The notes: generated from the letters alone by a model not told the origin. Positions 1,381 to 54,394 are shown, counted from the first letter of the stretch. The stretch: 64,000 bases of DNA from Candidatus Omnitrophota bacterium (GCA_028870995.1 JAGWOI010000009.1:7085-71084); one strand, 5' to 3'. Made by a program: numbers and translations.

Positions 1381-1464
1381 AGGCCGATTTTGCTGCTAAA
1401 AAATTAAGGAAATCGGCACATTGAATCAGTGGTAAAGGTCGTGGAATTTTTGGAAGGATAATTT
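1381..1464. repeat. Copy 1 of an ~85-bp intergenic repeat family (hairpin GCCGATTTT/AAAATCGGC plus GGAAGGA ribosome-binding site); fills the normally tiny rpsS-rplV spacer
   Basis: About 85% identical to 4841-4921 and 54310-54394. Begins right after the rpsS stop codon and ends at the rplV ATG. Confidence 0.85.
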
Positions 1465-4840: not shown

Positions 4841-4921
4841 AGGCCGATTTTGCTACTAAAAGATTAAGGAAATCGGCACTTCGAATCAATGTAAAAGTAG
4901 TGGAACTTTTGGAAGGAATCT
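4841..4921. repeat. Copy 2 of the ~85-bp intergenic hairpin + ribosome-binding-site repeat; fills the rplE-rpsZ spacer
   Basis: AGGCCGATTTTGCTACTAAAAGATTAAGGAAATCGGCAC...GTGGAACTTTTGGAAGGAATCT then ATG. Confidence 0.85.
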
Positions 4922-12435: not shown

Positions 12436-13425
12436 ATGGGTGTCAAATGGCGCGATTTTCAAATGCCGAAACGCTTGGATTGCGAAGAAGCTTCTTATAC
12501 GAACACGTACGGTAAATTTGTGGCAGAACCCTTTGAGCGCGGTTACGGCGTGACCTTGGGCAATTCCTTGCGCCGCATTTTGTTGTCATCCATCGAAGGC
12601 TCGGCCGTGACCTCGATCCGCATCGAAGGGGTAGCGCATGAGTTTTCCACCATGCCCGGTGTTTTGGAATCCGTGACCGAGATCGTCTTGAACATCAAGG
12701 CCCTGGTCATCCGTTCCCATTCCAAGACCCCCAAGACCGTTTATATCAAGGCCAACAAGAAGGGTGAACTCAAGGCGAAAGATATTATCTCCGACGAAAT
12801 GGTCGAGATTTTAAACGCTAATCATCACCTGTTGACCCTGACGCAGGACATTCCCTTCAACATGGAGCTGGAAATTTCCCGCGGCCGCGGTTATGTGCCG
12901 GCCGACCAGAACAAGAAGGAAGGCGCTCCGGTAGGGACCATCGTCGTGGATTCCATTTTCACGCCCATCGTGAAGGTCAATTTCACCGTGGAGAACACCC
13001 GTGTCGGCCAGCGCACCGATTATGACCGCCTGGTCGTCGAGATTTTCACCAACGGCGCCATCAACCCCAAGGAAGCCCTGCTGTACGGGGCCAATATCCT
13101 GCAGCGCCATTTGGATGTGTTCGTGGCCTACGGCCAGCTGCCGGAAGAGGAAGAAGTGGAAGAGGAAGTTTCCGCCGAGGAAGAGGCGTTGTACACCAAG
13201 TTGCGCCTGCCGATCTCCGAGCTGGAGCTTTCCGTGCGTTCTTCCAACTGCCTCAAGGACGCCAATATCAAGACCATCGGCGACCTGGTCCGCCGTCAGG
13301 AAGTGGAATTGCTGGAGTTCCGCAATTTTGGCAAGAAATCATTGACGGAAATCCAGGACATCCTTAAAGCCATGGGCCTGTCCCTTGGTATGAAGGTTGA
13401 TACCAAAAAATTAAGGACCAAGTAA
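12436..13425 (+). CDS. rpoA: DNA-directed RNA polymerase alpha subunit
   Basis: [41 protein letters not shown]. The C-terminal domain carries [22 protein letters not shown]. Confidence 0.95.
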
Positions 13426-13426
13426 T

Positions 13427-13993
13427 ATGAGACACGCGAAGGAAGGCAATCGTTTAAGCCGCAACAAAAGTTTAAGAAAAGCGACCTTGCGCGACATGGC
13501 CCGTGCCGTCCTGGTGCAGGAACGCATTTGCACCACCCGTGCCAAGGCCAAGGAAGCCAGGAAGCTTATCGAGAGATTGATCACCCTGGGCAAGAAGGAC
13601 ACGCTGGCGGCACGCCGCCGGGCTTTCGCCATCCTTTGCGACCATGGGTTGGTTTCCCAATTGTTCAAGCAGACCGCCCCGCGCTTCAAGGCGCGTAACG
13701 GCGGCTATACCCGCATTATCCCTTATATGCAGCGCAGCGGCGACAATGCCGCCCTGGCCTTCCTGGAACTTACCGAGAAATCCAGGGAGATCATCACCGG
13801 TACCAAGCGCGCCAAGGCCGAGAAGGAAGCGGCGGACACCAAGACCGTTTCCGAAGCGGAGACTAAACCCGCAGCGGAAACCAAGCCGGCAGCGCCGGGG
13901 CATTCCAAGGCTGATGTCAAGACCAAGCCTAAGGCTGCGGCCAAGCCCACCGGTGTCAAGAAGCTGTTCCAGCGCAAGACCGGAGGCGAATAA
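13427..13993 (+). CDS. rplQ: 50S ribosomal protein L17 with a ~65-aa Lys/Ala/Pro-rich C-terminal tail
   Basis: MRHAKEGNRLSRNKSLRKATLRDMARAV...GGYTRIIPYMQRSGDNAALAFLEL. The tail is a low-complexity K/A/P/E stretch. Confidence 0.93.
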   Translation: MRHAKEGNRLSRNKSLRKATLRDMARAVLVQERICTTRAKAKEARKLIERLITLGKKDTLAARRRAFAILCDHGLVSQLFKQTAPRFKARNGGYTRIIPYMQRSGDNAALAFLELTEKSREIITGTKRAKAEKEAADTKTVSEAETKPAAETKPAAPGHSKADVKTKPKAAAKPTGVKKLFQRKTGGE

Positions 13994-14023
13994 GCCGCCG
14001 CTTGCGTTAACAAGCAATTCCAG

Positions 14024-14052
14024 CCCCGTCTGAACAAGACGGGGCTTTTTTA
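14024..14052 (+). terminator. Rho-independent terminator after rplQ
   Basis: Hairpin CCCCGTCTGAACAAGACGGGG followed by TTTTTTATT. Confidence 0.8.
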
Positions 14053-14066
14053 TTGCCCTTTTCTCG

Positions 14067-14123
14067 TTGGACCGTTTCCGCGTCAGCCCTTGCTGCTATT
14101 GAGGTTATGATAGAAGTGTCCCC
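14067..14123. repeat. 57-bp bipartite motif TTGGACCGTTTC-N24-GGTTATGATAGAAGTGTCCCC; a second copy lies at 38974-39030
   Basis: Both flanking blocks match block-for-block at the two loci (39 of 41 positions identical) and the 24-nt spacing is the same. Both copies sit just 3' of a conserved gene at the edge of AT-rich DNA. Confidence 0.7.
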
Positions 14124-14129
14124 TTGCCT

Positions 14130-14294
14130 GGTTAAGCCGGTATTGCTCCCGAAACGGGGATATTTTCGCCGTCCGCTACGCTTTACGGCTCGGTTTCTAT
14201 CGCGATAAGGCATACGCGGAAACCTCGCCGTAAAACCTTGCGGACATTTGGCGAAAAATCCCTGAATGTTTCGTTCCGCAATACCGGCTTAACC
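14130..14294. repeat. Giant imperfect palindrome, family 1, copy 1 (165 bp)
   Basis: Terminal arms are GGTTAAGCCGGTATTGC / GCAATACCGGCTTAACC. The core GAAACGGGGATATTTTCGCCGTCCGCTACG...CGCGGAAACCTCGCCGTAAAACCTTGCGGACATTTGGCGAAAAATCCCTGAATGTTTC is shared with the copies at 25634-25810 and 26635-26802. Confidence 0.9.
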
Positions 14295-14313
14295 GTAGAG
14301 GATACCATTTCTG

Positions 14314-14343
14314 TTAGCATATGCAAATCATTCTGGTATAATT
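14314..14343 (+). promoter_or_regulatory. Near-consensus sigma70 promoter with extended -10: TTAGCA, 17-nt spacer ending TGG, then TATAAT
   Basis: -35 TTAGCA (14314-14319), 17-nt spacer, TGn extension, -10 TATAAT (14338-14343). This lies 15 nt upstream of the island's first ORF. Confidence 0.7.
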
Positions 14344-14357
14344 AGAAATTCCTAAAT

Positions 14358-14768
14358 ATGACACTAAAGCAGAAAAAATTTCTTGGTCGAGAGAGCCTTA
14401 GAGAATCTTGGGTTAAAAGCACAGATACTCCTTTACGTTTTTTTGTTCAGCTATTATTTATAATTGAAGGAACTCTGGGGCTGGTATTTATTGCAGGAGT
14501 TAAATATAATTTGGACAAAACTATTTTAATTTGGATCTTTTTGTCCTTAGTTGGACTTGGCGGACTTGCTTTAATAATGGTTTTTCTACTTGTTGTTTTT
14601 TTTCCAAAGAATTTAGTGTTTGATAAAGATGCTCATTTATTTGAAAGAGCTTTAGAATACGGAGATGACGCGCATATAATGGCGTATTCCCAGTTAAGAA
14701 GTGTGGAATTAATATCTCCTCCAAAACAAATTACAAATCAACGTCAGGAAGGAACTATAAATGAGTAA
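14358..14768 (+). CDS. Hypothetical small membrane protein (2 predicted TM helices); AT-rich
   Basis: 136 aa. Hydrophobic segments FFVQLLFIIEGTLGLVFIAGV and ILIWIFLSLVGLGGLALIMVFLLVVFF. First gene behind the island promoter. I recognise no family. Confidence 0.6.
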   Translation: MTLKQKKFLGRESLRESWVKSTDTPLRFFVQLLFIIEGTLGLVFIAGVKYNLDKTILIWIFLSLVGLGGLALIMVFLLVVFFPKNLVFDKDAHLFERALEYGDDAHIMAYSQLRSVELISPPKQITNQRQEGTINE

Positions 14769-15036
14769 GGCTTTCCTGATAACATATGACTTAAAATATA
14801 AGTCCACACAGAATTATGTGCCTTTTTTTAATGCTATAAGGACTGCTAAATGGTGGCATTATCTTCCAGATGCATGGATTATTATAACTGATAAAGATGC
14901 TACTTATTGGCAAAACACACTGGTTCCACTAACGTTTCAAGGAGATTTTCTACTAATCATTGAAGTAAAACGACAATCTGGCGGGTGGCTTCCTTTAGAA
15001 GCCTGGAATTGGATAAATGAAAATATTCCAACATAA
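14761..15036 (+). CDS. Hypothetical 91-aa protein, translationally coupled to the upstream membrane protein (ATGA overlap)
   Basis: MSKAFLITYDLKYKSTQNYVPFFNAIRTAKWWHYLPDAWIIITDKDATYWQNTLVPLTFQGDFLLIIEVKRQSGGWLPLEAWNWINENIPT. Trp-rich, with no recognisable family. Its start overlaps the stop of 14358-14768. Confidence 0.55.
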   Translation: MSKAFLITYDLKYKSTQNYVPFFNAIRTAKWWHYLPDAWIIITDKDATYWQNTLVPLTFQGDFLLIIEVKRQSGGWLPLEAWNWINENIPT

Positions 15037-15221
15037 TTGAATATATTTAGTTTTAGAACGAGCCGGGTCCCTGAAAGGGGATAGGTCTGTTTGAATTGAC
15101 AGCCGATCCCCGTCGTGATATTCTACATGCAGAACAAGAAGCATTCCGACCGTAACCATCCCCGCCGCTTCTTATTATCAAACCCCCTTTAATTCGTAGC
15201 AACGACGAAGGATTTACTTTC

Positions 15222-15632
15222 ATGAAGAATAAATCAAGAAAGTCAGGGGAGGATTTTAACCATTGGAACCAGCAGAAGCAAAAGACGCATTTCGACAAGC
15301 AAAGGCCTTTTTTCCATGAACAGGAAGTATGGTTTTGTGCGCTGGGAGTTAATATTGGTTTTGAACAAGATGGCCGGGGCAATGGATTCTTACGACCGGT
15401 TCTGATCCTAAAGAAATTTAATAACGAAATATTCTGGGCTTTGCCCATGACTAAAAATTTAAAGCAAGGGACGTATTACGCTGCCATTTCATTTAGAAAA
15501 AATACCCAAAGCACCTTAATTCTTTCTCAAATTCGCTTAGTTGATGCAAAAAGACTGGTATATAAAGCAGGAGCTGTTAAACAGCAGGATTTTGAATCGA
15601 TTAAAGAGAGGGTTAGGCAAATACTTGCCTAA
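15222..15632 (+). CDS. PemK/MazF-family endoribonuclease toxin-like protein (divergent, with an N-terminal extension); no cognate antitoxin ORF detected
   Basis: ...QEVWFCALGVNIGFEQDGRGNGFLRPVLILKKFNNEIFWALPMT...LILSQIRLVDAKRLVYKAGAVKQQDFESIKERV. This parallels the MazF pattern of a G-rich loop, RPxLIL, then ADQVKSID-KRL...G.L....I. Confidence 0.6.
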   Translation: MKNKSRKSGEDFNHWNQQKQKTHFDKQRPFFHEQEVWFCALGVNIGFEQDGRGNGFLRPVLILKKFNNEIFWALPMTKNLKQGTYYAAISFRKNTQSTLILSQIRLVDAKRLVYKAGAVKQQDFESIKERVRQILA

Positions 15633-15708
15633 AAAAATTAACCCCCGTTCTTGACGGGGGAGGGCCTTTCAGCCATTTGTGGTTTAAGTATAACATGGCA
15701 TATGATTA

Positions 15709-15953
15709 TGTCAAACGTTAAAAAGAGGTGTCACATGGGAAAAACAAAAAGTTTTCTGTTTGACGCAAAAGAAACGAAATATTTGTGGAGATATTCGGAT
15801 GATGCTATGCGTACAACAAGAAGGTTAAGTGAAATGTATCCAGATATCCCTAAGAAGCTCGATGCTGTAGTACATGTTATCGAATTTCACAAGTTAACAA
15901 GTATACCAAGGAGTAAAAGAACAAAAATATTGAATTGGTTAGATAAGGAATAA
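15709..15953 (+). CDS. Hypothetical protein (start ambiguous; the ORF track gives 15651-15953)
   Basis: MSNVKKRCHMGKTKSFLFDAKETKYLWRYSDDAMRTTRRLSEMYPDIPKKLDAVVHVIEFHKLTSIPRSKRTKILNWLDKE. The track start at 15651 overlaps the upstream hairpin, so an internal ATG (15709 or 15736) is more likely. Confidence 0.45.
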
Positions 15954-15965
15954 AAGGGAGGGGAG

Positions 15966-16397
15966 ATGCCCAAAAAGCCCGTCAAAAAATGCTGCATGTG
16001 CGGCAAGCCGGTCTTCTCGCCCAAATCCATCTATTGCCGTGACTGTTCTCATTTCAGCGCCCGGATGTCCGATGAAAGGTTTTCACCGGAAACCCGCCAA
16101 CAGCTTTGGAATTACGTCCGCCGTAACAAAGGCTTTTACTGTTATTACACCGGTTTAAAACTCGATGTGTTTGATTACGCGAGTCCTTATTTCCTGGAGT
16201 TTGACCATGTCACACCGCAAAACCCCAAGAAGATCGTGATGTGCTGCGCCTGGTTCAATGAAATTAAAGGGGACATGACCTTAAACGAATTAAAGGGTTC
16301 TGTTAAGCAGCTCTTTAACTACTGGTTTAAGGGTATAAAAATAAAAAAGCGAAAATTCCGCTATTGGTACCGCCTTATCCCTGATTTTTGTAAATAA
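15966..16397 (+). CDS. Small free-standing HNH endonuclease with an N-terminal zinc ribbon
   Basis: N-terminus CCMCGKPVFSPKSIYCRDCSHF (a 4-Cys motif). The HNH core is EFDHVTPQNPKKIVMCCAWFNEIKGDMTLNEL (His...Asn...Asn/Lys). Confidence 0.7.
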   Translation: MPKKPVKKCCMCGKPVFSPKSIYCRDCSHFSARMSDERFSPETRQQLWNYVRRNKGFYCYYTGLKLDVFDYASPYFLEFDHVTPQNPKKIVMCCAWFNEIKGDMTLNELKGSVKQLFNYWFKGIKIKKRKFRYWYRLIPDFCK

Positions 16398-16430
16398 TTT
16401 TGCTCCTCTTCGTAGTGCCCTCGGGAAGGG

Positions 16431-16459
16431 TTGACTTGCCCCTATAATTTCTATATAAT
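16431..16459 (+). promoter_or_regulatory. Consensus sigma70 promoter TTGACT-17-TATAAT upstream of lysS
   Basis: -35 TTGACT at 16431-16436, exact 17-nt spacer, -10 TATAAT at 16454-16459, 47 nt before the lysS start. Confidence 0.7.
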
Positions 16460-16506: not shown

Positions 16507-17955
<1,449 letters not shown>

Positions 17956-25633: not shown

Positions 25634-25810
25634 GCGTATAGGTTAACCGGTATTGCTTCAGAAACGGGGATATTTTTGCCGTCCGCTACGGTTTACAGCT
25701 CGGCTGCTATCGCGATAAGGCATTCGCGGCAGCCTCGCTGTAAAGCCTTGCGGACATTTGGCAAAAAATCTCTGATCGTTTCTGAAGCAATACCGGCTTA
25801 ACCTATACGC
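25634..25810. repeat. Giant imperfect palindrome, family 1, copy 2 (177 bp)
   Basis: Arms are GCGTATAGGTTAACCGGTATTGCTTCAGAAACG / CGTTTCTGAAGCAATACCGGCTTAACCTATACGC. The core is shared with copies 1 and 3, with compensatory changes between the arms. Confidence 0.9.
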
Positions 25811-25837
25811 AAGAAATATAGCGGCATCAGCCTGGTA

Positions 25838-26596
25838 ATGGTTTACGAACTTAATAGATTCGTGAGTAACGACAAGTATGTTGACAAAAAAGACATTATT
25901 GACGCAATACGTAAAACCGCAAAACAGAACGGCGATAGCCCTTTAGGCGTCGGTAGATTCGAAAAAGAGACAGGAATAAAAAGTTATGATTGGGGAAAAT
26001 ATTGGGCACGGTTTGGGGATGCACAAAAGGAGGCTGGTTTTAAGTCAAATCAGTTACAAATTGCCTATACTGACGAGTTTATTATTGAGAAGATAATTGG
26101 TGTGATTTGTAAGCTTGATAAATTTCCAACCCTACGCGAAATGGTGGTAGAACATCATAACGATTCTGAGTTTCCGAGTTATAGTGTTTTTAGACGCTTA
26201 GGTACGAGGGAACAAATTGTAAATAAAGTAATGGAATATTGTAAGGATAAGAGTGCTTACGATGATATTGTTACTCTTTGTGGATCAATTCTTGGGAGTT
26301 CCAAAGATGAAAAGGTTATGGATGAGTCTAACATTCAGATTGGAGAAGTATACCTTTTCAAGTCGTGTCGGTATTATAAAATTGGAAAAACATATGACAC
26401 CGTGAGGCGGGGCAGTGAACTTAGGATTCAATTACCAGAAAAATGCGAATTAATACATTCTATTAAGACTGATGATCCAAGTGGTATCGAAGCTTATTGG
26501 CATAAACGATTTGAGACGAAAAGGATGAATGGTGAGTGGTTTGACTTAAGCTTTGCTGAAGTAAAGGCATTTAAGCTTTGGAGACGTATAAATTAA
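25838..26596 (+). CDS. Free-standing homing-endonuclease-like protein: two N-terminal HNH/homing-endonuclease-associated repeats plus a C-terminal T5orf172/GIY-YIG-like nuclease domain
   Basis: C-terminus is GEVYLFKSCRYYKIGKTYDTVRRGSEL...LIHSIKTDDPSGIEAYWHKRFETKRMNGEWFDL (the GIY..YIG..R..E..N pattern of T5orf172). N-terminus has two repeats of ...P..FGxxxxA..EAGF type (SPLGVGRFEKETGIKSYDWGKYWARFGDAQKEAGF). AT-rich. Confidence 0.7.
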   Translation: MVYELNRFVSNDKYVDKKDIIDAIRKTAKQNGDSPLGVGRFEKETGIKSYDWGKYWARFGDAQKEAGFKSNQLQIAYTDEFIIEKIIGVICKLDKFPTLREMVVEHHNDSEFPSYSVFRRLGTREQIVNKVMEYCKDKSAYDDIVTLCGSILGSSKDEKVMDESNIQIGEVYLFKSCRYYKIGKTYDTVRRGSELRIQLPEKCELIHSIKTDDPSGIEAYWHKRFETKRMNGEWFDLSFAEVKAFKLWRRIN

Positions 26597-26634
26597 GATG
26601 TATTTATGGCAGGGAGCAGATATGTGCATGGAAA

Positions 26635-26802
26635 GGATGGATAGGTAGGATGTTTTCAGAACGGGGATATTTCCGCCGTCCGCTACGGTTTATGGCTCGG
26701 TTTCTATCGCAATAAAGCATACGCGGAAACCTCGCCATAAAACCTTGCGGACATTTGGCGGAAAATCCCTGAATATTCTGAAAACATCCTACCTATCCAT
26801 CC
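26635..26802. repeat. Giant imperfect palindrome, family 1, copy 3 (168 bp)
   Basis: Arms are GGATGGATAGGTAGGATGTTTTCAGAA / TTCTGAAAACATCCTACCTATCCATCC. The core is conserved while the outer arms differ from copies 1 and 2 yet remain perfectly self-complementary. Confidence 0.9.
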
Positions 26803-37913: not shown

Positions 37914-38954
37914 ATGGCTGTTGAAACTATTAAATGGATCAATGGTGCGGCCCGTATCATTGATCAAACCAAACTTCCCCGTCAATTTAAATACCTCTAT
38001 TGCCGCGACGTCAAAACCATGTGGCAGGCCATCAAGCGCCTGCAGGTGCGCGGCGCGCCAGCCATCGGTGTTGCTGCCGCCTTTGGCGTTTTGTTAGGCA
38101 TTCAGAAATTCAAGGGTTCGGATAAAAGGAAGTTCCTGCAATTGTTCCATGAAACCTGTGATTATTTGAGCACATCCCGCCCGACGGCGGTGAATCTTTT
38201 CAACATGCTCAATGAAATGCGTGCCGTCGTGACGCATAATCCTCAGGCCGATGTGGCCACCTTAAAAAAGGCCCTGTTCCTGCAGGCCATGACCATTTTT
38301 GAGGCGGACCGCGAGGTCTGCCGGCAAATGGGGGAGCACGGTGCCAAACTGATCAAGAACGGCATGCGCTGTTTGACGGTTTGCAATGCCGGGGCCCTGG
38401 CTACTGTTGATTACGGCACGGCTCTAGGCGTTTTTTACAGTGCCAAGGGGCGGGGCAAGAAATTCAGCGTCTATTCCTGCGAGACCCGTCCCTTATTGCA
38501 GGGGGCAAGGCTCACCTGTTGGGAACTGCTGCAGCAGAAGATCGATACCACGCTTATCTGCGACAATATGGCTGCGACCCTGATGGCGCAGGGGAAGGTG
38601 GACATTATTTTTACCGGTGCTGACCGCATCGCCTCCAACGGGGATGCCGCCAACAAGATCGGCACCTACATGCTGGCGGTCCTGGCCCGGCATCACGGCA
38701 TTCCTTTTTATGTGGTGGCGCCCAGCACTACCTTTGATTTGAAGATAAAGTCCGGCAGGCAGATCCCCATCGAAGAGCGGCACAGTGATGAAGTCACGCA
38801 TTTTGCGGGAGTGCCCACAGCTCCCAAGGGCGTTAAAGTCTATAATCCGGCCTTTGACGTGACGCCGGCTAAGCTCATTGCCGGCATCGTGACCGAACAC
38901 GGCATCATCCGAGCGCCTTTTGTCAAAAATATCAAACGTCTTCTCTTAAATTAG
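37914..38954 (+). CDS. mtnA: S-methyl-5-thioribose-1-phosphate isomerase (eIF-2B alpha/beta/delta family)
   Basis: 346 aa. RGAPAIGVAAAFGVLLG...CNAGALATVDYGTALGV...GADRIASNGDAANKIGTY. Confidence 0.85.
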   Translation: MAVETIKWINGAARIIDQTKLPRQFKYLYCRDVKTMWQAIKRLQVRGAPAIGVAAAFGVLLGIQKFKGSDKRKFLQLFHETCDYLSTSRPTAVNLFNMLNEMRAVVTHNPQADVATLKKALFLQAMTIFEADREVCRQMGEHGAKLIKNGMRCLTVCNAGALATVDYGTALGVFYSAKGRGKKFSVYSCETRPLLQGARLTCWELLQQKIDTTLICDNMAATLMAQGKVDIIFTGADRIASNGDAANKIGTYMLAVLARHHGIPFYVVAPSTTFDLKIKSGRQIPIEERHSDEVTHFAGVPTAPKGVKVYNPAFDVTPAKLIAGIVTEHGIIRAPFVKNIKRLLLN

Positions 38955-38985
38955 TTGGACCGTTTCAAATTAGTTGGACCGTTTC
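38948..38985. repeat. Perfect tandem duplication, 2 x 19 bp (AAATTAGTTGGACCGTTTC), which includes the mtnA stop codon
   Basis: 38948-38966 and 38967-38985 are identical. The second unit begins the 57-bp motif (38974-39030) that is shared with 14067-14123. Confidence 0.85.
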
Positions 38986-39285
38986 TACGGGAACCTATGA
39001 GACTCTTAGGGTTATGGCAGAAGTGTCCCCAAAACTTGAAGGGAATGGACCAAGTAGAGTCAATTCACCTTCTCCCAAGGGTTTCATATAATTTCCCAAT
39101 TCGATATCACAGTTTGTGATCTTAAGTCAGGGTGGTTCGCGCAAACCGCGACAAAAAGATTATCTCCATATTCCAGGCCATTAAGGCCTTATTGTCCAAC
39201 AAAGAAGTGAAATCGAGAAAACGGGCGCCTTTGGGATTTCAAATACCGAAGGGAATTAAGTAGCTGTTTTATTCTTCTCTTGTAG

Positions 39286-53456: not shown

Positions 53457-54335
53457 ATGCATCCCGTTTTTGCCATCATCGACATTCTTCTTCTTTTTAC
53501 CTTATGTTGGTTCTTCCTGCAAAATATCCGGCTCAACCGCGAACTTAAAGAGAAAAACAGGGAATTGGAAGCTGCCATCAAGGAGCTTAAGGATGCCCAG
53601 GTCAAATTGATGGACAGCGGCAAGAAAGGCGCCGTCGCCGCCCTTAGCGCCGGTCTTTTGCATCAGATCAGTCAGCCCATCACTGCCATTCATGGGTTTT
53701 TGCGCTTCATGAAAAAGGAAATGGACATCAATTCCCCTTTTTACAAGCCGGTCTGCGTCATGGATGAGCAGTCTTTTTATATCAAGGACATGCTGGCCAA
53801 TTTGATGGAGCTGATCCGCCACCGTAAGATCCAGAAAGCGCCGATCAACATCAATACGGTGATCCATCGCGCCATGAATTTGCTTTTGGACGAACTGCGT
53901 ATCCGCCGTGTCGGTTGGGACATGCAGTTGGAAGAGAAGATACCCATGGTTTACGGGGATGCCCTGCATTTGCAGCAGGTCTTCATGAACCTTGTGGTCA
54001 ATGCCATGGAAGCTTTGAGCGAATTGCCTCACGGGCAGGCGCGCGCCCTAATCGTCGCTTCCGCCTACGGGGCCGCCCGCCAGGAAGCGGTCATTACCTT
54101 CAAGGACAACGGCCCGGGCATCGACAGCCAGCACCAATCCAAGATTTTCGATCCATTCTTCTCAACCAAGACGCAGGGGTCGGGCATAGGATTGGCCCTG
54201 TGCCACGATCTGATCAACGAGCACGGCGGCCATATCAGCGTCCAGAGCGGCAAGGAGGGGACCATCTTTACGGTGACATTGCCATGCATGAGGTCCGGCA
54301 AAATCCAACAGGCCGATCTTGCTACTAATAATTAA
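53457..54335 (+). CDS. Sensor histidine kinase (one N-terminal TM helix, HisKA plus HATPase_c). The last 8 codons are contributed by the 85-bp repeat
   Basis: H-box AALSAGLLHQISQPITAIHGF, N-box LQQVFMNLVVNAMEA, G-boxes DNGPGI and GSGIGLAL. Confidence 0.85.
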   Translation: MHPVFAIIDILLLFTLCWFFLQNIRLNRELKEKNRELEAAIKELKDAQVKLMDSGKKGAVAALSAGLLHQISQPITAIHGFLRFMKKEMDINSPFYKPVCVMDEQSFYIKDMLANLMELIRHRKIQKAPININTVIHRAMNLLLDELRIRRVGWDMQLEEKIPMVYGDALHLQQVFMNLVVNAMEALSELPHGQARALIVASAYGAARQEAVITFKDNGPGIDSQHQSKIFDPFFSTKTQGSGIGLALCHDLINEHGGHISVQSGKEGTIFTVTLPCMRSGKIQQADLATNN

Positions 54336-54394
54336 GGAAATCGGCACCTTGAATCAGTGGAAAAGCTAGTGGAATTTATGGAGGGAGGCTGGAC
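54310..54394. repeat. Copy 3 of the ~85-bp intergenic hairpin + ribosome-binding-site repeat (overlaps the histidine-kinase 3' end and supplies the response-regulator ribosome-binding site)
   Basis: AGGCCGATCTTGCTACTAATAATTAAGGAAATCGGCACCTTGAATCAGTGGAAAAGCTAGTGGAATTTATGGAGGGAGG. Confidence 0.85.

What the first reader, a model, noticed from the sequence alone, without database searches (positions are those of the whole stretch)
14067..16400. AT-rich 2.3-kb island directly after rplQ carrying a membrane/small-protein pair, an orphan MazF-like RNase and an HNH endonuclease behind a strong promoter
The conserved rplQ terminator is followed by the 57-bp motif, then giant hairpin copy 1, then an extended -10 sigma70 promoter, then five ORFs with foreign composition (33-45% GC against ~60% in the flanks).

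The ORFs are:
- a 2-TM protein of 136 aa;
- a translationally coupled 91-aa Trp-rich protein;
- a PemK/MazF-like protein with no upstream antitoxin ORF;
- an ~80-aa hypothetical protein;
- a zinc-ribbon HNH endonuclease.

A nuclease/toxin-rich mosaic with its own promoter, and with no integrase or transposase, looks like a defence or selfish cassette island. The 2-TM plus small-protein pair has no family I recognise and could be an unrecognised effector module.
Basis: partly seen in the sequence, partly recalled or inferred. Interest (0 to 1): 0.75.

Follow-up and report, generated by a model that had tools for sequence, protein, structure and literature searches.

The report
Toxin-type gene cassettes after rplQ
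The AT-rich stretch between a ribosomal-protein gene and lysS in this Omnitrophota genome is a hotspot for imported toxin-type cassettes, and its first gene pair belongs to an apparently undescribed family in which a small Cas2-shaped protein partners many different toxic effectors.

Summary
A 2.3-kb segment of 32-45% GC (flanks 51-61%) lies between rplQ and lysS of a Candidatus Omnitrophota MAG, with five co-directional ORFs.

It is a mosaic of independent cassettes, not one unit. The closest relative keeps rplQ and lysS but has a different 6.7-kb low-GC cargo there (RES fragment, BrnT/CopG, RelE/HTH). Only ORF5 is shared.

ORF1+ORF2 is a self-contained two-gene cassette with its own promoter. 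ORF1 is a 2-TM protein. ORF2 (91 aa) models at pLDDT 94.6 as a Cas2-like ferredoxin fold.

In 114 related loci, ORF2 relatives usually lie immediately downstream of varied effector-type proteins: 2-TM families, RelA/SpoT, patatin and SIR2. In phages they are often solo. Unrelated partners share a C-terminal [YFW]G[ST][DE] tail. A SIR2 partner and a 2-TM partner have 78%-identical ORF2 proteins and alignable tails.

My reading is a toxin-antitoxin-like or abortive-infection module, with ORF2 docking on the effector tail. This is inferred, not shown.

ORF3 is a MazF/PemK-family protein without a protein antitoxin, as in plasmid and prophage relatives. ORF5 is a divergent zinc-ribbon HNH-like protein. 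No known defence system was detected.

The parts
14022..14046 (+). rplQ intrinsic-terminator-like hairpin followed by a T-run; left edge of the variable region
   Evidence: 10 pairs, 7 of them GC, tail TTTTTATTGC. rplQ (Pfam Ribosomal_L17, E 5.9e-31) ends at 13993.
14066..14123 (.).
   Evidence: second copy at 38973-39030, 74% identical. That copy also lies just after a gene end. Absent from relatives' loci.
14134..14290 (.). 157-nt imperfect hairpin repeat (D1, 'giant hairpin copy 1') at the left boundary of the low-GC DNA
   Evidence: dG -56.8 kcal/mol, z = -7.1; copies at 25647 and 26644, 84-88% identical, with paired changes. Those two copies flank the only other low-GC gene in the window. 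Absent from relatives' loci.
14314..14342 (+). Promoter-like site of the ORF1-ORF2 cassette (TTAGCA-17-TATAAT, TG-extended)
   Evidence: 10 of 12 matches with TG. A TAnnATAAT-like element sits at the same place upstream of ORF1 homologues in L002 and L113, although the flanks are otherwise unrelated.
14358..14768 (+). ORF1: 136-aa 2-TM protein. Helices lie at about 28-48 and 56-82. The N-terminus is basic and the C-terminal tail (83-136) is predicted cytoplasmic, carrying P-x-NL-x-FD-x-x-HL and YGDD motifs. Proposed membrane effector or toxin.
   Evidence: hydropathy and family conservation; 68 representatives at 50% identity with E <= 1e-3; no Pfam hit. PADLOC PycTM only 16.5 bits; family members sit immediately upstream of ORF2 relatives and all 23 non-redundant ones carry the tail motif.
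14761..15036 (+). ORF2: 91-aa Trp-rich protein with a Cas2-like ferredoxin fold, overlapping ORF1 by 8 nt. Proposed neutraliser or sensor that docks on the effector tail.
15096..15221 (+). Promoter-like site (15096-15124, TTGACA-17-TATTCT) and leader of the ORF3 cassette. The part from about 15133 is conserved with an independent copy and contains the inverted repeat AAGAAGC...GCTTCTT.
15222..15632 (+). ORF3: PemK/MazF-family protein of an N-terminally extended subfamily, with no adjacent protein antitoxin
   Evidence: PF02452, 39.3 bits against a 23.1 cut-off; phrog_9567, E 6.4e-20; no upstream ORF of useful size; relatives on Campylobacterota prophages and plasmids also have no annotated partner; an 86%-identical copy lies downstream of an ORF5 homologue in L190.
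15642..15714 (-). Conserved element downstream of ORF3. It has a minus-strand promoter-like site (15714->15687, TTGACA-16-TATACT, TG-extended) and a minus-strand terminator (15660->15642 plus a T-run). Candidate ~50-nt RNA convergent with ORF3; low confidence.
   Evidence: window; same arrangement in L190, with a different spacer and loop; alignment; folds are not significant, z = -1.5 and -2.0.
15735..15953 (+). ORF4: 72-aa orphan protein with a good Shine-Dalgarno sequence and no detectable relatives. Not linked to ORF3 or ORF5 elsewhere.
   Evidence: no family hit; singleton cluster; no tblastn hit in any fetched locus; none in viral contigs.
15966..16397 (+). ORF5: 143-aa protein with an N-terminal zinc ribbon (CxxC...CxxC) and a divergent HNH-like core (C-x-Y-T, E-x-D-H, N-E-x-K-G-D). 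It is the conserved resident of this locus in related Omnitrophota.
   Evidence: PHROG endonuclease VII 3.5e-7 and HNH families; invariant C12 C24 C59 T62 E78 D80 N98 E99 K101 D103; near-invariant C9 C27 H81; model pLDDT 78; the top 7 Foldseek hits are all HNH nucleases but with probability <= 0.28; homologues in L006 and L190-L194 at the same locus.
16431..16459 (+). Promoter-like site of lysS (TTGACT-17-TATAAT); right edge of the variable region
   Evidence: 11 of 12 matches. lysS at 16507-17955 matches Pfam tRNA-synt_2 at E 1.4e-88.

Best explanation
The rplQ-lysS gap of this Omnitrophota lineage is a hotspot that accumulates small, self-contained, horizontally acquired toxin-type cassettes. 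They sit next to a resident zinc-ribbon HNH-like gene (ORF5). In this genome the cargo has three parts.

(1) A two-gene operon with its own promoter.
- ORF1 is a 2-TM inner-membrane effector.
- Its cytoplasmic juxtamembrane region and tail carry a conserved docking motif (NL-x-FD-x-x-HL ... [YF]G[STD][DE]).
- ORF2 is translationally coupled and has a Cas2-like fold. It binds that tail and keeps ORF1 inactive.
- Loss or titration of ORF2, for example during phage infection or after loss of the cassette, would free ORF1 to damage the membrane and stop growth.
- This makes the pair toxin-antitoxin-like or abortive-infection-like.

(2) A separately mobile, solitary MazF/PemK-type RNase cassette (ORF3). 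Its control is not by an adjacent protein antitoxin.

(3) An orphan 72-aa gene (ORF4).

Shown here:
- The foreign composition of the segment.
- The variability of the junction among relatives.
- The independence of the cassettes.
- The fold of ORF2.
- The pairing of the ORF2 family with many effector types.
- The shared tail motif.

Inferred:
- Physical binding of ORF2 to the tail.
- Toxicity of ORF1.
- Neutralisation by ORF2.
- Any anti-phage role.
For: Composition and junction:
- The island is 0.32-0.45 GC against 0.51-0.61 in the flanks.
- Sister species L006 (RpoA 94% identical, LysS 92%) has a different 6.7-kb low-GC cargo between rplQ and lysS. It holds a RES fragment, BrnT/CopG-type, RelE/HTH, an ORF5 homologue and a 1140-aa protein.
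- L192-194 carry rpoA-rplQ-BrnT pair-Gp49/HTH-ORF5 homologue. L191 carries two ORF5 paralogues upstream of lysS.

Cassette autonomy:
- DNA similarity to L002 and L113 covers only ORF1, ORF2 and the promoter-like element.
- The ORF3 cassette recurs with conserved flanks in a different position in L190.

ORF2 fold:
- pLDDT 94.6.
- An Asp at the end of strand 1 is near-invariant.

Pairing across 114 ORF2-family hits:
- 36 have an ORF1-family gene immediately upstream on the same strand; the gap is -17 to +12 nt in all but one, which shows an apparent 82-nt overlap.
- 62 have an upstream partner of at least 100 aa within -20 to +15 nt.
- Other partners include further 2-TM families, two of them remote ORF1 relatives by hhalign (90% and 63% probability).
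- Partners also include RelA_SpoT, Patatin and SIR2_2 proteins.

Shared tail:
- The motif [YFW]G[STDEN] falls in the last 60 aa of 23/23 ORF1-family partners and 10/32 other partners.
- Background is 7%, giving binomial p = 6e-5 for the non-ORF1 partners.
- The SIR2-type partner in L132 and the 2-TM partner in L137 have ORF2 proteins 78% identical. Their tails align (score 52) while the rest is unrelated (score 25).

Mobilome and defence context:
- Relatives lie in prophage early regions, next to transposases, and next to a CBASS operon.
Against: - No experiment or complex model supports ORF2-tail binding.
- No PADLOC model matches any of the five proteins convincingly, so a defence role is unproven.
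- About half of the ORF2 relatives have no coupled partner in my ORF calls, and phage copies are solo. ORF2 must therefore also work alone.
- In L149 and L175 the upstream partner is a HicB antitoxin within a hicA-hicB-ORF2 operon. That does not fit a simple 'upstream gene = toxin' rule.
- The tail motif is short. It is absent or altered in RelA/SpoT partners and several other partners.
- The conserved Asp and the Cas2 fold leave a nuclease role for ORF2 open.
- My ORF calling is naive, and most of the loci are short, unclassified metagenome contigs.
Confidence: 0.6

Rival explanations
1. Type V (GhoT/GhoS-like) system. ORF1 is a small membrane toxin. ORF2 is a Cas2/GhoS-fold endoribonuclease that prevents toxin synthesis by cleaving the ORF1 mRNA. 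The neighbouring MazF-like RNase might sit above it in a cascade, as MqsR does for GhoST in E. coli (the MqsR relationship is from my own knowledge).
For: - The partner is a 2-TM protein.
- The Asp at the end of strand 1 is near-invariant, as expected for a Cas2-type metal site.
- An RNase toxin gene lies next door.
Against: - Cas2 proteins match better than GhoS.
- The gene order is effector first.
- ORF2 relatives pair with unrelated effectors that share a peptide tail, with 78%-identical ORF2 across a SIR2/2-TM swap. That argues for recognition of a protein segment rather than of one mRNA.
- ORF3 moves independently of the pair.
Confidence: 0.12
2. ORF2 is itself the toxin or effector, a Cas2/VapD-like nuclease. 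The upstream proteins are its antitoxins, anchors or sensors.
For: - The fold is Cas2/VapD-like.
- VapD-type TA systems exist in which a Cas2-like protein is the toxin (PMC11980593).
- A HicB-type antitoxin lies directly upstream in L149 and L175.
- Solo copies appear as opposite-strand 'moron'-like genes in prophages.
Against: - Most identifiable partners are domains normally used as toxins or effectors: RelA_SpoT, patatin, SIR2 and 2-TM.
- Solo copies in phages and plasmids are evidently tolerated without a partner.
- No Pfam Cas2 or VapD model matches.
Confidence: 0.12
3. The island is a decayed remnant of one larger integrated element, such as a prophage or integrative island. It would not be a hotspot filled by independent cassettes, and the ORFs would be leftovers without a current function.
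For: - The composition is low-GC throughout.
- Relatives of ORF2 and ORF3 occur in prophages.
- Signs of decay exist elsewhere: a RES fragment in L006 and a frameshifted ORF1 in L001-L003.
Against: - No integrase, att repeats or phage structural genes are present.
- Each cassette has its own distribution and its own conserved boundaries.
- All five ORFs are intact, and ORF2, ORF3, ORF4 and ORF5 have recognisable ribosome-binding sites while ORF1 does not.
- GC differs between parts, 0.33 for ORF1-2 against 0.43-0.49 for ORF5.
Confidence: 0.1

Closest known systems
Hyperpromiscuous antitoxin systems (PanA/Panacea; the NetFlax TA network, PMC10440598)
   Same: One small partner domain is found next to many unrelated toxin domains, including membrane-depolarising TM toxins and RelA/SpoT-type toxSAS. 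These are two-gene operons found on mobile elements and in defence contexts (for the paper; for ORF2).
   Different: - ORF2 has no Pfam match, so it is not DUF4065/Panacea. It has a Cas2-like ferredoxin fold.
- It is almost always the downstream gene.
- The partners share a C-terminal peptide motif. I did not see such a motif in the passages of that paper that I searched.
- I could not check whether ORF2 is a node of the NetFlax network.
GhoT/GhoS type V toxin-antitoxin system
   Different: - The gene order is reversed.
- No sequence similarity was detected.
- ORF2 pairs with many different effectors through what looks like a protein tail rather than one mRNA.
Cas2 / VapD superfamily (including VapD-VapX/Y/W TA systems, PMC11980593)
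   Same: The fold and the conserved Asp after strand 1.
   Different: - No Cas2 or VapD profile match.
- No cas1 or CRISPR next to it; the neighbours are rplQ and lysS, and Rfam finds only a tRNA in the window.
- A distinct invariant WWHY ... GWL..AW.W signature.
- The partners are effector-type proteins rather than SH3-fold VapX/Y.
MazEF / PemIK type II toxin-antitoxin
   Same: ORF3 passes the Pfam PemK_toxin threshold.
   Different: - It has an N-terminal extension of about 30 aa, shared with phrog_9567.
- No MazE/PemI-type gene is adjacent here or in plasmid and prophage relatives.
- There is a conserved convergent promoter and terminator element instead.
HNH (beta-beta-alpha-Me) endonucleases such as McrA, the Cas9 HNH domain and phage endonuclease VII
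   Same: ORF5 has a conserved D-H ... N core and cysteine pairs. It hits PHROG endonuclease VII and HNH families. The best Foldseek matches are all HNH nucleases.
   Different: - No Pfam HNH model matches.
- The Foldseek probabilities are low (<= 0.28).
- The first CxxC of the HNH core is replaced by C-x-Y-T.
- The gene is locus-anchored in one bacterial lineage rather than phage-borne.

Membership tests
PemK/MazF toxin family (Pfam PF02452), for ORF3 | Profile match above the curated threshold | tested here: met
   39.3 bits against a cut-off of 23.1, E 8.2e-10, covering profile positions 4-109 of 109; phrog_9567 'MazF-like growth inhibitor', E 6.4e-20.
PemK/MazF toxin family (type II MazEF module), for ORF3 | Adjacent, co-transcribed protein antitoxin (MazE/PemI type) | tested here: not met
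   the longest upstream same-strand ORF is 25 aa and has no ribosome-binding site; the copy in L190 has different neighbours, so ORF4 is not an obligatory partner; relatives also have no annotated partner.
PemK/MazF toxin family, for ORF3 | Catalytic residues and RNase activity | tested here: inconclusive
No residue-level check was possible and activity cannot be tested with these tools.
Cas2 family, for ORF2 | Ferredoxin-like beta-alpha-beta-beta-alpha-beta fold most similar to Cas2 | tested here: met
Cas2 family, for ORF2 | Sequence-profile membership and association with cas1/CRISPR | tested here: not met
   no Pfam or NCBIfam hit; no PDB sequence hit; the neighbours are rplQ and lysS, and no CRISPR repeat family reaches its gathering score in the window.
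GhoT/GhoS type V TA, for ORF1-ORF2 | GhoS-family antitoxin that cleaves ghoT mRNA; operon order ghoS-ghoT | tested here: not met
Pycsar effector PycTM, for ORF1 | PycTM profile match and an adjacent pyrimidine cyclase | tested here: not met
   PADLOC PycTM at 16.5 bits, E 2e-3, over the TM region only; no Pfam PF18967 hit; hhalign of the ORF1 family against PycTM-like neighbours of ORF2 relatives gives probability 0.2%. No cyclase gene is present in the island.
Type II-like toxin-antitoxin module, for ORF1-ORF2 | Two small co-directional, overlapping genes, conserved as a pair and patchily distributed on mobile DNA | tested here: met
   overlaps of 8 or 4 nt; 36 ORF1-family plus ORF2 pairs; similarity limited to the pair; mobilome contexts.
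Type II-like toxin-antitoxin module, for ORF1-ORF2 | Toxicity of one partner, and neutralisation by direct binding of the other | not testable with these tools
Only indirect support exists, from the shared tail motif.
PanA/Panacea hyperpromiscuous antitoxin | DUF4065 (Panacea) domain | tested here: not met
   no Pfam hit for ORF2; no Pfam domain on record for any of the 38 relatives.
HNH endonuclease, for ORF5 | Profile match to HNH families | tested here: inconclusive
   no Pfam HNH hit. PHROG endonuclease VII 3.5e-7; HNH families 1.8e-4, 3.6e-3 and weaker; weak Cas9 hit over residues 58-134 (E 0.033).
HNH endonuclease, for ORF5 | Conserved D/H-H ... N catalytic core on a beta-beta-alpha fold, with zinc-binding cysteines | tested here: inconclusive
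   E78 D80 N98 invariant, H81 near-invariant, and C9/C12/C24/C27 conserved; strands at 76-80 and 91-94 followed by a helix at 95-103. The top 7 Foldseek hits are all HNH nucleases, but E is 0.5-1.5 and probability <= 0.28.
Known anti-phage defence systems (PADLOC-DB v2.0.0) | Match of the component proteins to the models of a defined system | tested here: not met
   no hit for ORF2-ORF5, and only the weak PycTM hit for ORF1.

The most novel reading that the evidence does not exclude
The ORF2 family (about 90 aa, Cas2-like fold, WWHY/GWL..AW.W signature) may be an undescribed, widespread 'tail-docking' partner. It would recognise a short C-terminal peptide ([YF]G[ST][DE]...L) that can be grafted onto many unrelated effectors: 2-TM pore-formers, RelA/SpoT, patatin, SIR2, and even a HicB antitoxin.

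That would define a new modular toxin-antitoxin or abortive-infection superfamily comparable in reach to Panacea. Solo phage copies would act as counter-defence decoys.
Probability: 0.4. Interest if true: 0.75.

Novelty: new variant of a known kind. Interest (0 to 1): 0.62.

Why it matters
If the reading is right, a common small protein would become the marker of a modular conflict system. That protein currently has no Pfam, NCBIfam or PADLOC model and sits in a PHROG of unknown function.

The partners of such a marker would point to new effectors, several of which here are uncharacterised membrane proteins. A short peptide tail that is sufficient for control by a Cas2-fold protein would be a compact, transferable regulatory handle. 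It would also add to the few known cases where the Cas2 fold acts outside CRISPR adaptation.

The locus itself shows that, in this Omnitrophota lineage, the end of the ribosomal-protein/rpoA operon is a recurrent landing site for toxin-type cassettes. This phylum has almost no experimental genetics, so such a landmark is useful for reading its MAGs.

The practical limit is that every function here is inferred from sequence and context.

Tried and rejected
Checks that came back negative:
- **PycTM/Pycsar membership of ORF1.** The PADLOC hit is weak, Pfam is negative and hhalign is negative.
- **ORF2 as a SinR-type regulator.** NCBI and UniRef label two relatives 'SinR family protein'. No NCBIfam model supports the label, and the fold is not helix-turn-helix.
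- **ORF4 as the antitoxin of ORF3, or as a partner of ORF5.** It has no relatives anywhere I could search. It is absent next to the ORF3 and ORF5 homologues in L190-L194 and L006.
- **A type III (ToxIN-like) RNA antitoxin upstream of ORF3.** I saw no tandem repeats on reading the leader. I did not run the tandem-repeat tool.
- **Rfam.** Nothing reaches threshold in the island, and the sub-threshold hits are noise.
- **D1 and D6 repeats in relatives.** I searched for them at the same junction and found none. They are specific to this genome.

Checks I could not complete:
- **Complex prediction of ORF1+ORF2.** The AFDB Foldseek library was unavailable.
- **The validated pVir type I system CjrA/CjpT.** I tried to link the Campylobacter pVir MazF-like relative to it. 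The primary paper (PMID 27291507) is not held. It stays an unverified lead.
- **Literature searches** for a Cas2-like partner of toxSAS, patatin, SIR2 or TM toxins found nothing relevant. This is absence in the held library only.

Full report
**1. What is there**

The window comes from a Candidatus Omnitrophota MAG. All five island proteins are exact matches to NCBI entries MDE2027542-46. Four are singleton clusters at 90% identity and the ORF3 cluster has two members.

The gene order is as follows:
- rpoA at 12436-13425 and rplQ at 13427-13993.
- A terminator-like hairpin at 14022-14046.
- A 58-nt repeat at 14066-14123.
- A 157-nt hairpin repeat at 14134-14290, with dG -56.8 kcal/mol and z = -7.1.
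- A TG-extended promoter-like site at 14314-14342.
- Five co-directional ORFs.
- The lysS promoter-like site at 16431-16459, and lysS at 16507-17955.

GC is 0.32-0.45 across 14300-16400 and 0.51-0.61 on both sides. Only one other segment of the 64 kb is comparably AT-rich. The flanks are about 55% GC rather than 60%. ORF4 is 72 aa. The HNH call is weaker than stated.

**2. The junction is a variable hotspot**

I scanned species-representative genomes with RpoA and recovered eleven Omnitrophota relatives. Only the closest, L006 (RpoA 94% identical, LysS 92%), keeps lysS within 10 kb of rplQ.

In L006 the gap is 6.7 kb, again at 0.34-0.49 GC apart from one 300-nt window at 0.51, with different genes:
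- an 86-aa RES-domain fragment;
- a BrnT-like plus CopG-like pair;
- a UPF0093 membrane protein;
- a RelE plus HTH pair;
- a 55%-identical ORF5 homologue;
- a 1140-aa protein.

Contigs carrying other ORF5 homologues show the same theme:
- L192-194 have rpoA-rplQ-(274 aa)-BrnT pair-Gp49/HTH-ORF5 homologue.
- L191 (LysS 90-92% identical) has two ORF5 paralogues upstream of lysS.
- L190 has an ORF5 homologue followed by an 86%-identical ORF3.

ORF5 is thus the resident gene of the locus. It is also the least AT-rich part, at 0.43-0.49 GC. Toxin-antitoxin-type cassettes come and go around it.

**3. ORF1-ORF2 is a conserved cassette**

ORF1 has two hydrophobic helices (about 28-48 and 56-82), a basic N-terminus and a 54-residue C-terminal tail. 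It has no Pfam or NCBIfam family. An exhaustive search found 68 cluster representatives with E <= 1e-3, nearly all 83-170 aa long.

ORF2 overlaps ORF1 by 8 nt. It matches phrog_1090 (function unknown) at E 2.4e-14, and nothing in Pfam, NCBIfam or PADLOC.

DNA similarity to two independent copies (L002, L113) covers only the two genes and a promoter-like element just upstream. The pair therefore travels as a unit with its own promoter.

**4. ORF2 fold**

An alignment of 36 relatives has these invariant positions: W31 W32 H33 Y34 L35 G75 W82 W84. T8 Y9 D10 L11 are near-invariant.

The AlphaFold model has pLDDT 94.6, with strand-helix-strand-strand-helix-strand-helix order.

| Search | Result |
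|---|---|
| Foldseek vs PDB | Ranks 1-8 are Cas2 proteins (TM 0.54-0.62, E from 8e-3) |

The ferredoxin-like fold is common. I therefore treat 'Cas2-like fold' as shown and 'Cas2 homologue' as likely but unproven. The Asp at the end of strand 1 is where Cas2 proteins carry their metal-binding Asp (this point is from my own knowledge).

**5. The ORF2 family is a promiscuous downstream partner**

I collected 114 ORF2-family hits from encoding contigs, viral contigs and metagenome contigs, then called ORFs and searched them with profiles.
- 36 hits have an ORF1-family gene immediately upstream on the same strand. The gap is -17 to +12 nt in all but one, where my naive ORF call gives an apparent 82-nt overlap. 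No ORF1-family gene lies downstream of an ORF2 hit.
- None of the 15 viral-contig hits has an ORF1-family gene upstream.
- Overall, 62 have an upstream partner of at least 100 aa within -20 to +15 nt.

Partners outside the ORF1 family include:
- several other 2-TM families, of which two are remote ORF1 relatives by hhalign (probability 90% and 63%);
- RelA_SpoT proteins (E about 1e-15);
- a patatin phospholipase (E 1.3e-25);
- a SIR2_2 protein;
- larger proteins with one to three hydrophobic segments;
- HicB, inside hicA-hicB-ORF2 operons.

Two loci instead have a PycTM-type protein overlapping downstream. In phages phi4B1 and CP51 and in a Brevibacillus prophage, the gene stands alone on the opposite strand in the early region. 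In Cereibacter sphaeroides 2.4.1 it sits next to a CBASS operon.

**6. A shared tail**

The partners share a motif about 20-40 residues from the C-terminus, [YFW]G[STDEN].

| Set | With motif in last 60 aa |
|---|---|
| Non-redundant ORF1-family partners | 23 of 23 |
| Other partners | 10 of 32 |
| Background ORFs | 7% |

The binomial p for the non-ORF1 partners is 6e-5. Variants such as GPVG....EL and EKG..IP..EL occur in other clusters.

The clearest case is a swap. The SIR2-type partner in L132 (381 aa) and the 2-TM partner in L137 (111 aa) have ORF2 proteins that are 78% identical. Their last 45 residues align with score 52 (KAPFGTDLKTVPNKDDL against KAVYGTEKSPINNIDTL). The rest of the two proteins is unrelated, with score 25.

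Within the ORF1 family, the best-conserved segments are PLGFFVL..E at the start of TM1, the P-x-NL-x-FD-x-x-HL segment just after TM2, and the G of the tail motif (one search lists F28, V75, L86, H93 and G102 as invariant in the paired set). I read this as a 'tail plus ORF2' unit that has been combined with different effector heads.

**7. Mechanism proposed**

Shown:
- cassette structure and translational coupling;
- the fold of ORF2;
- effector-type partners;
- the shared tail;
- mobilome contexts.

Inferred:
- ORF1 inserts with both ends in the cytoplasm (positive-inside rule).
- ORF2 binds the juxtamembrane/tail segment and holds ORF1 inactive.
- Loss of ORF2 releases a membrane-damaging effector.
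- Solo phage copies may be decoys.

I could not test binding. The HicB-partner operons and the many solo copies show that the rule 'upstream gene = toxin' is not universal.

**8. ORF3**

ORF3 passes the PemK_toxin threshold. It belongs to an N-terminally extended subfamily, phrog_9567, E 6.4e-20.

No upstream ORF could encode an antitoxin. Relatives have no annotated partner either:
- in Campylobacter CJIE4 prophages, where the gene lies between the terminase and portal genes;
- on Helicobacter suis, Nitratiruptor and C. jejuni pVir plasmids.

Comparison with L190 shows that the cassette is conserved from about 90 nt upstream of the start to about 65 nt past the stop, and then diverges.

The downstream conserved part has a minus-strand TTGACA-16-TATACT site and a minus-strand terminator. 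Both are present in both copies despite different spacer and loop sequences. This could give a ~50-nt RNA convergent with ORF3. The folds are not significant and there are only two sequences, so this remains a lead.

**9. ORF5**

Seventy cluster representatives at 52-78% identity exist, none with a Pfam domain.

The conserved residues fit a zinc ribbon followed by a degenerate HNH core: C9/C12/C24/C27, C59-x-Y-T62, E78-x-D80-H81 and N98-E-x-K-G-D103.

The model has pLDDT 78. Its seven best Foldseek matches are all HNH nucleases (Cas9 HNH domains, Gme HNH, EcoKMcrA, a type II enzyme), but E is 0.5-1.5. Together with the PHROG hits, I accept 'HNH-like' as probable.

**10. Known systems**

PADLOC models give nothing except a 16.5-bit PycTM hit on the TM region of ORF1. 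Pfam and hhalign do not confirm it.

The behaviour of ORF2 resembles hyperpromiscuous antitoxins such as PanA (PMC10440598). The domain is different.

Searches of the held literature found no description of a Cas2-like partner of such effectors.

**11. Verdict**

- The island is real and is a hotspot mosaic of mobile toxin-type cassettes.
- The ORF1-ORF2 pair belongs to a widespread and apparently undescribed modular family.
- Its function as a toxin-antitoxin or defence module is well motivated but unproven.

Noticed in passing
window 25647-26779: The only other low-GC island in the window is a single 252-aa gene (25838-26596; Pfam MUG113/T5orf172, with a weak HNH_repeat hit). It is flanked on both sides by the other two copies of the 157-nt D1 hairpin (25647-25782 and 26644-26779). 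It sits between an MlaE permease gene and an ABC ATPase gene. Both foreign islands in the window thus abut D1 hairpins and contain a homing-endonuclease-type nuclease gene.
   Followed up: partly
window 38953-39030: The second copy of the 58-nt D6 motif lies directly after a gene end. It is preceded by a tandem duplication of TTAGTTGGACCGTTTC.
   Followed up: partly
window 1399-1458, 4859-4918, 54327-54386: A 60-nt direct-repeat family (AAAAATTAAGGAAATCGGCAC...TGGAAGGA), 72-88% identical and widely spaced. I did not examine it.
   Followed up: no
L001 392-628; L002 265-674; L003 150-559: The closest ORF1 homologue (its ORF2 is 74% identical) is split into 71-aa and 78-aa pieces. A one-base difference in a T-run causes the split. 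The same split is seen in three independent assemblies (JGI, NCBI, Logan), while ORF2 stays intact.
   Followed up: partly
L149 107-1132; L175 375-1411: Three-gene operons hicA-hicB-ORF2 family. Here the HicB antitoxin (HicB plus RHH domains) carries a C-terminal extension with a PFG/WGS motif and overlaps the ORF2 relative.
   Followed up: partly
L199 2495-5246 (Cereibacter sphaeroides 2.4.1 plasmid pDE): A solo ORF2 relative lies directly upstream of a CBASS-type operon (nucleotidyltransferase, a hypothetical protein, a SAVED-domain protein) and next to an ImmA/IrrE gene.
   Followed up: no
L198 2477-2764; L200 815-1102 (small Klebsiella and Citrobacter plasmids): Divergent ORF2-like genes, with GWCHPL in place of WWHYL and unannotated in PLSDB, occur on 4.9-5.8-kb plasmids (ColRNAI replicon in Klebsiella). 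A 56-65-aa two-helix hydrophobic ORF lies about 350 nt upstream.
   Followed up: partly
L128 2265-2711; L132 3317-4027: HNH-motif proteins lie just downstream of the patatin+ORF2 and SIR2+ORF2 modules. This echoes the HNH-like ORF5 downstream in the window.
   Followed up: no
L191 2778-3230 and 5001-5432: A close relative (LysS 90-92% identical) has two ORF5 paralogues upstream of lysS, with unrelated genes between them. Its lysS is split into two ORFs, possibly a sequencing error.
   Followed up: no
L197 1480-2000 (C. jejuni 81-176 pVir): The MazF-like relative on pVir also has a minus-strand TG-extended promoter-like site about 90 nt past its stop. pVir is reported to carry a validated type I system, cjrA RNA/CjpT (PMC7826846). 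I could not establish whether this gene is cjpT.
   Followed up: partly
P0021, P0026: Two ORF2 relatives are labelled 'SinR family protein' by NCBI or UniRef. No NCBIfam model supports the label, and the predicted fold is not helix-turn-helix. The label looks like a propagated misnomer.
   Followed up: yes
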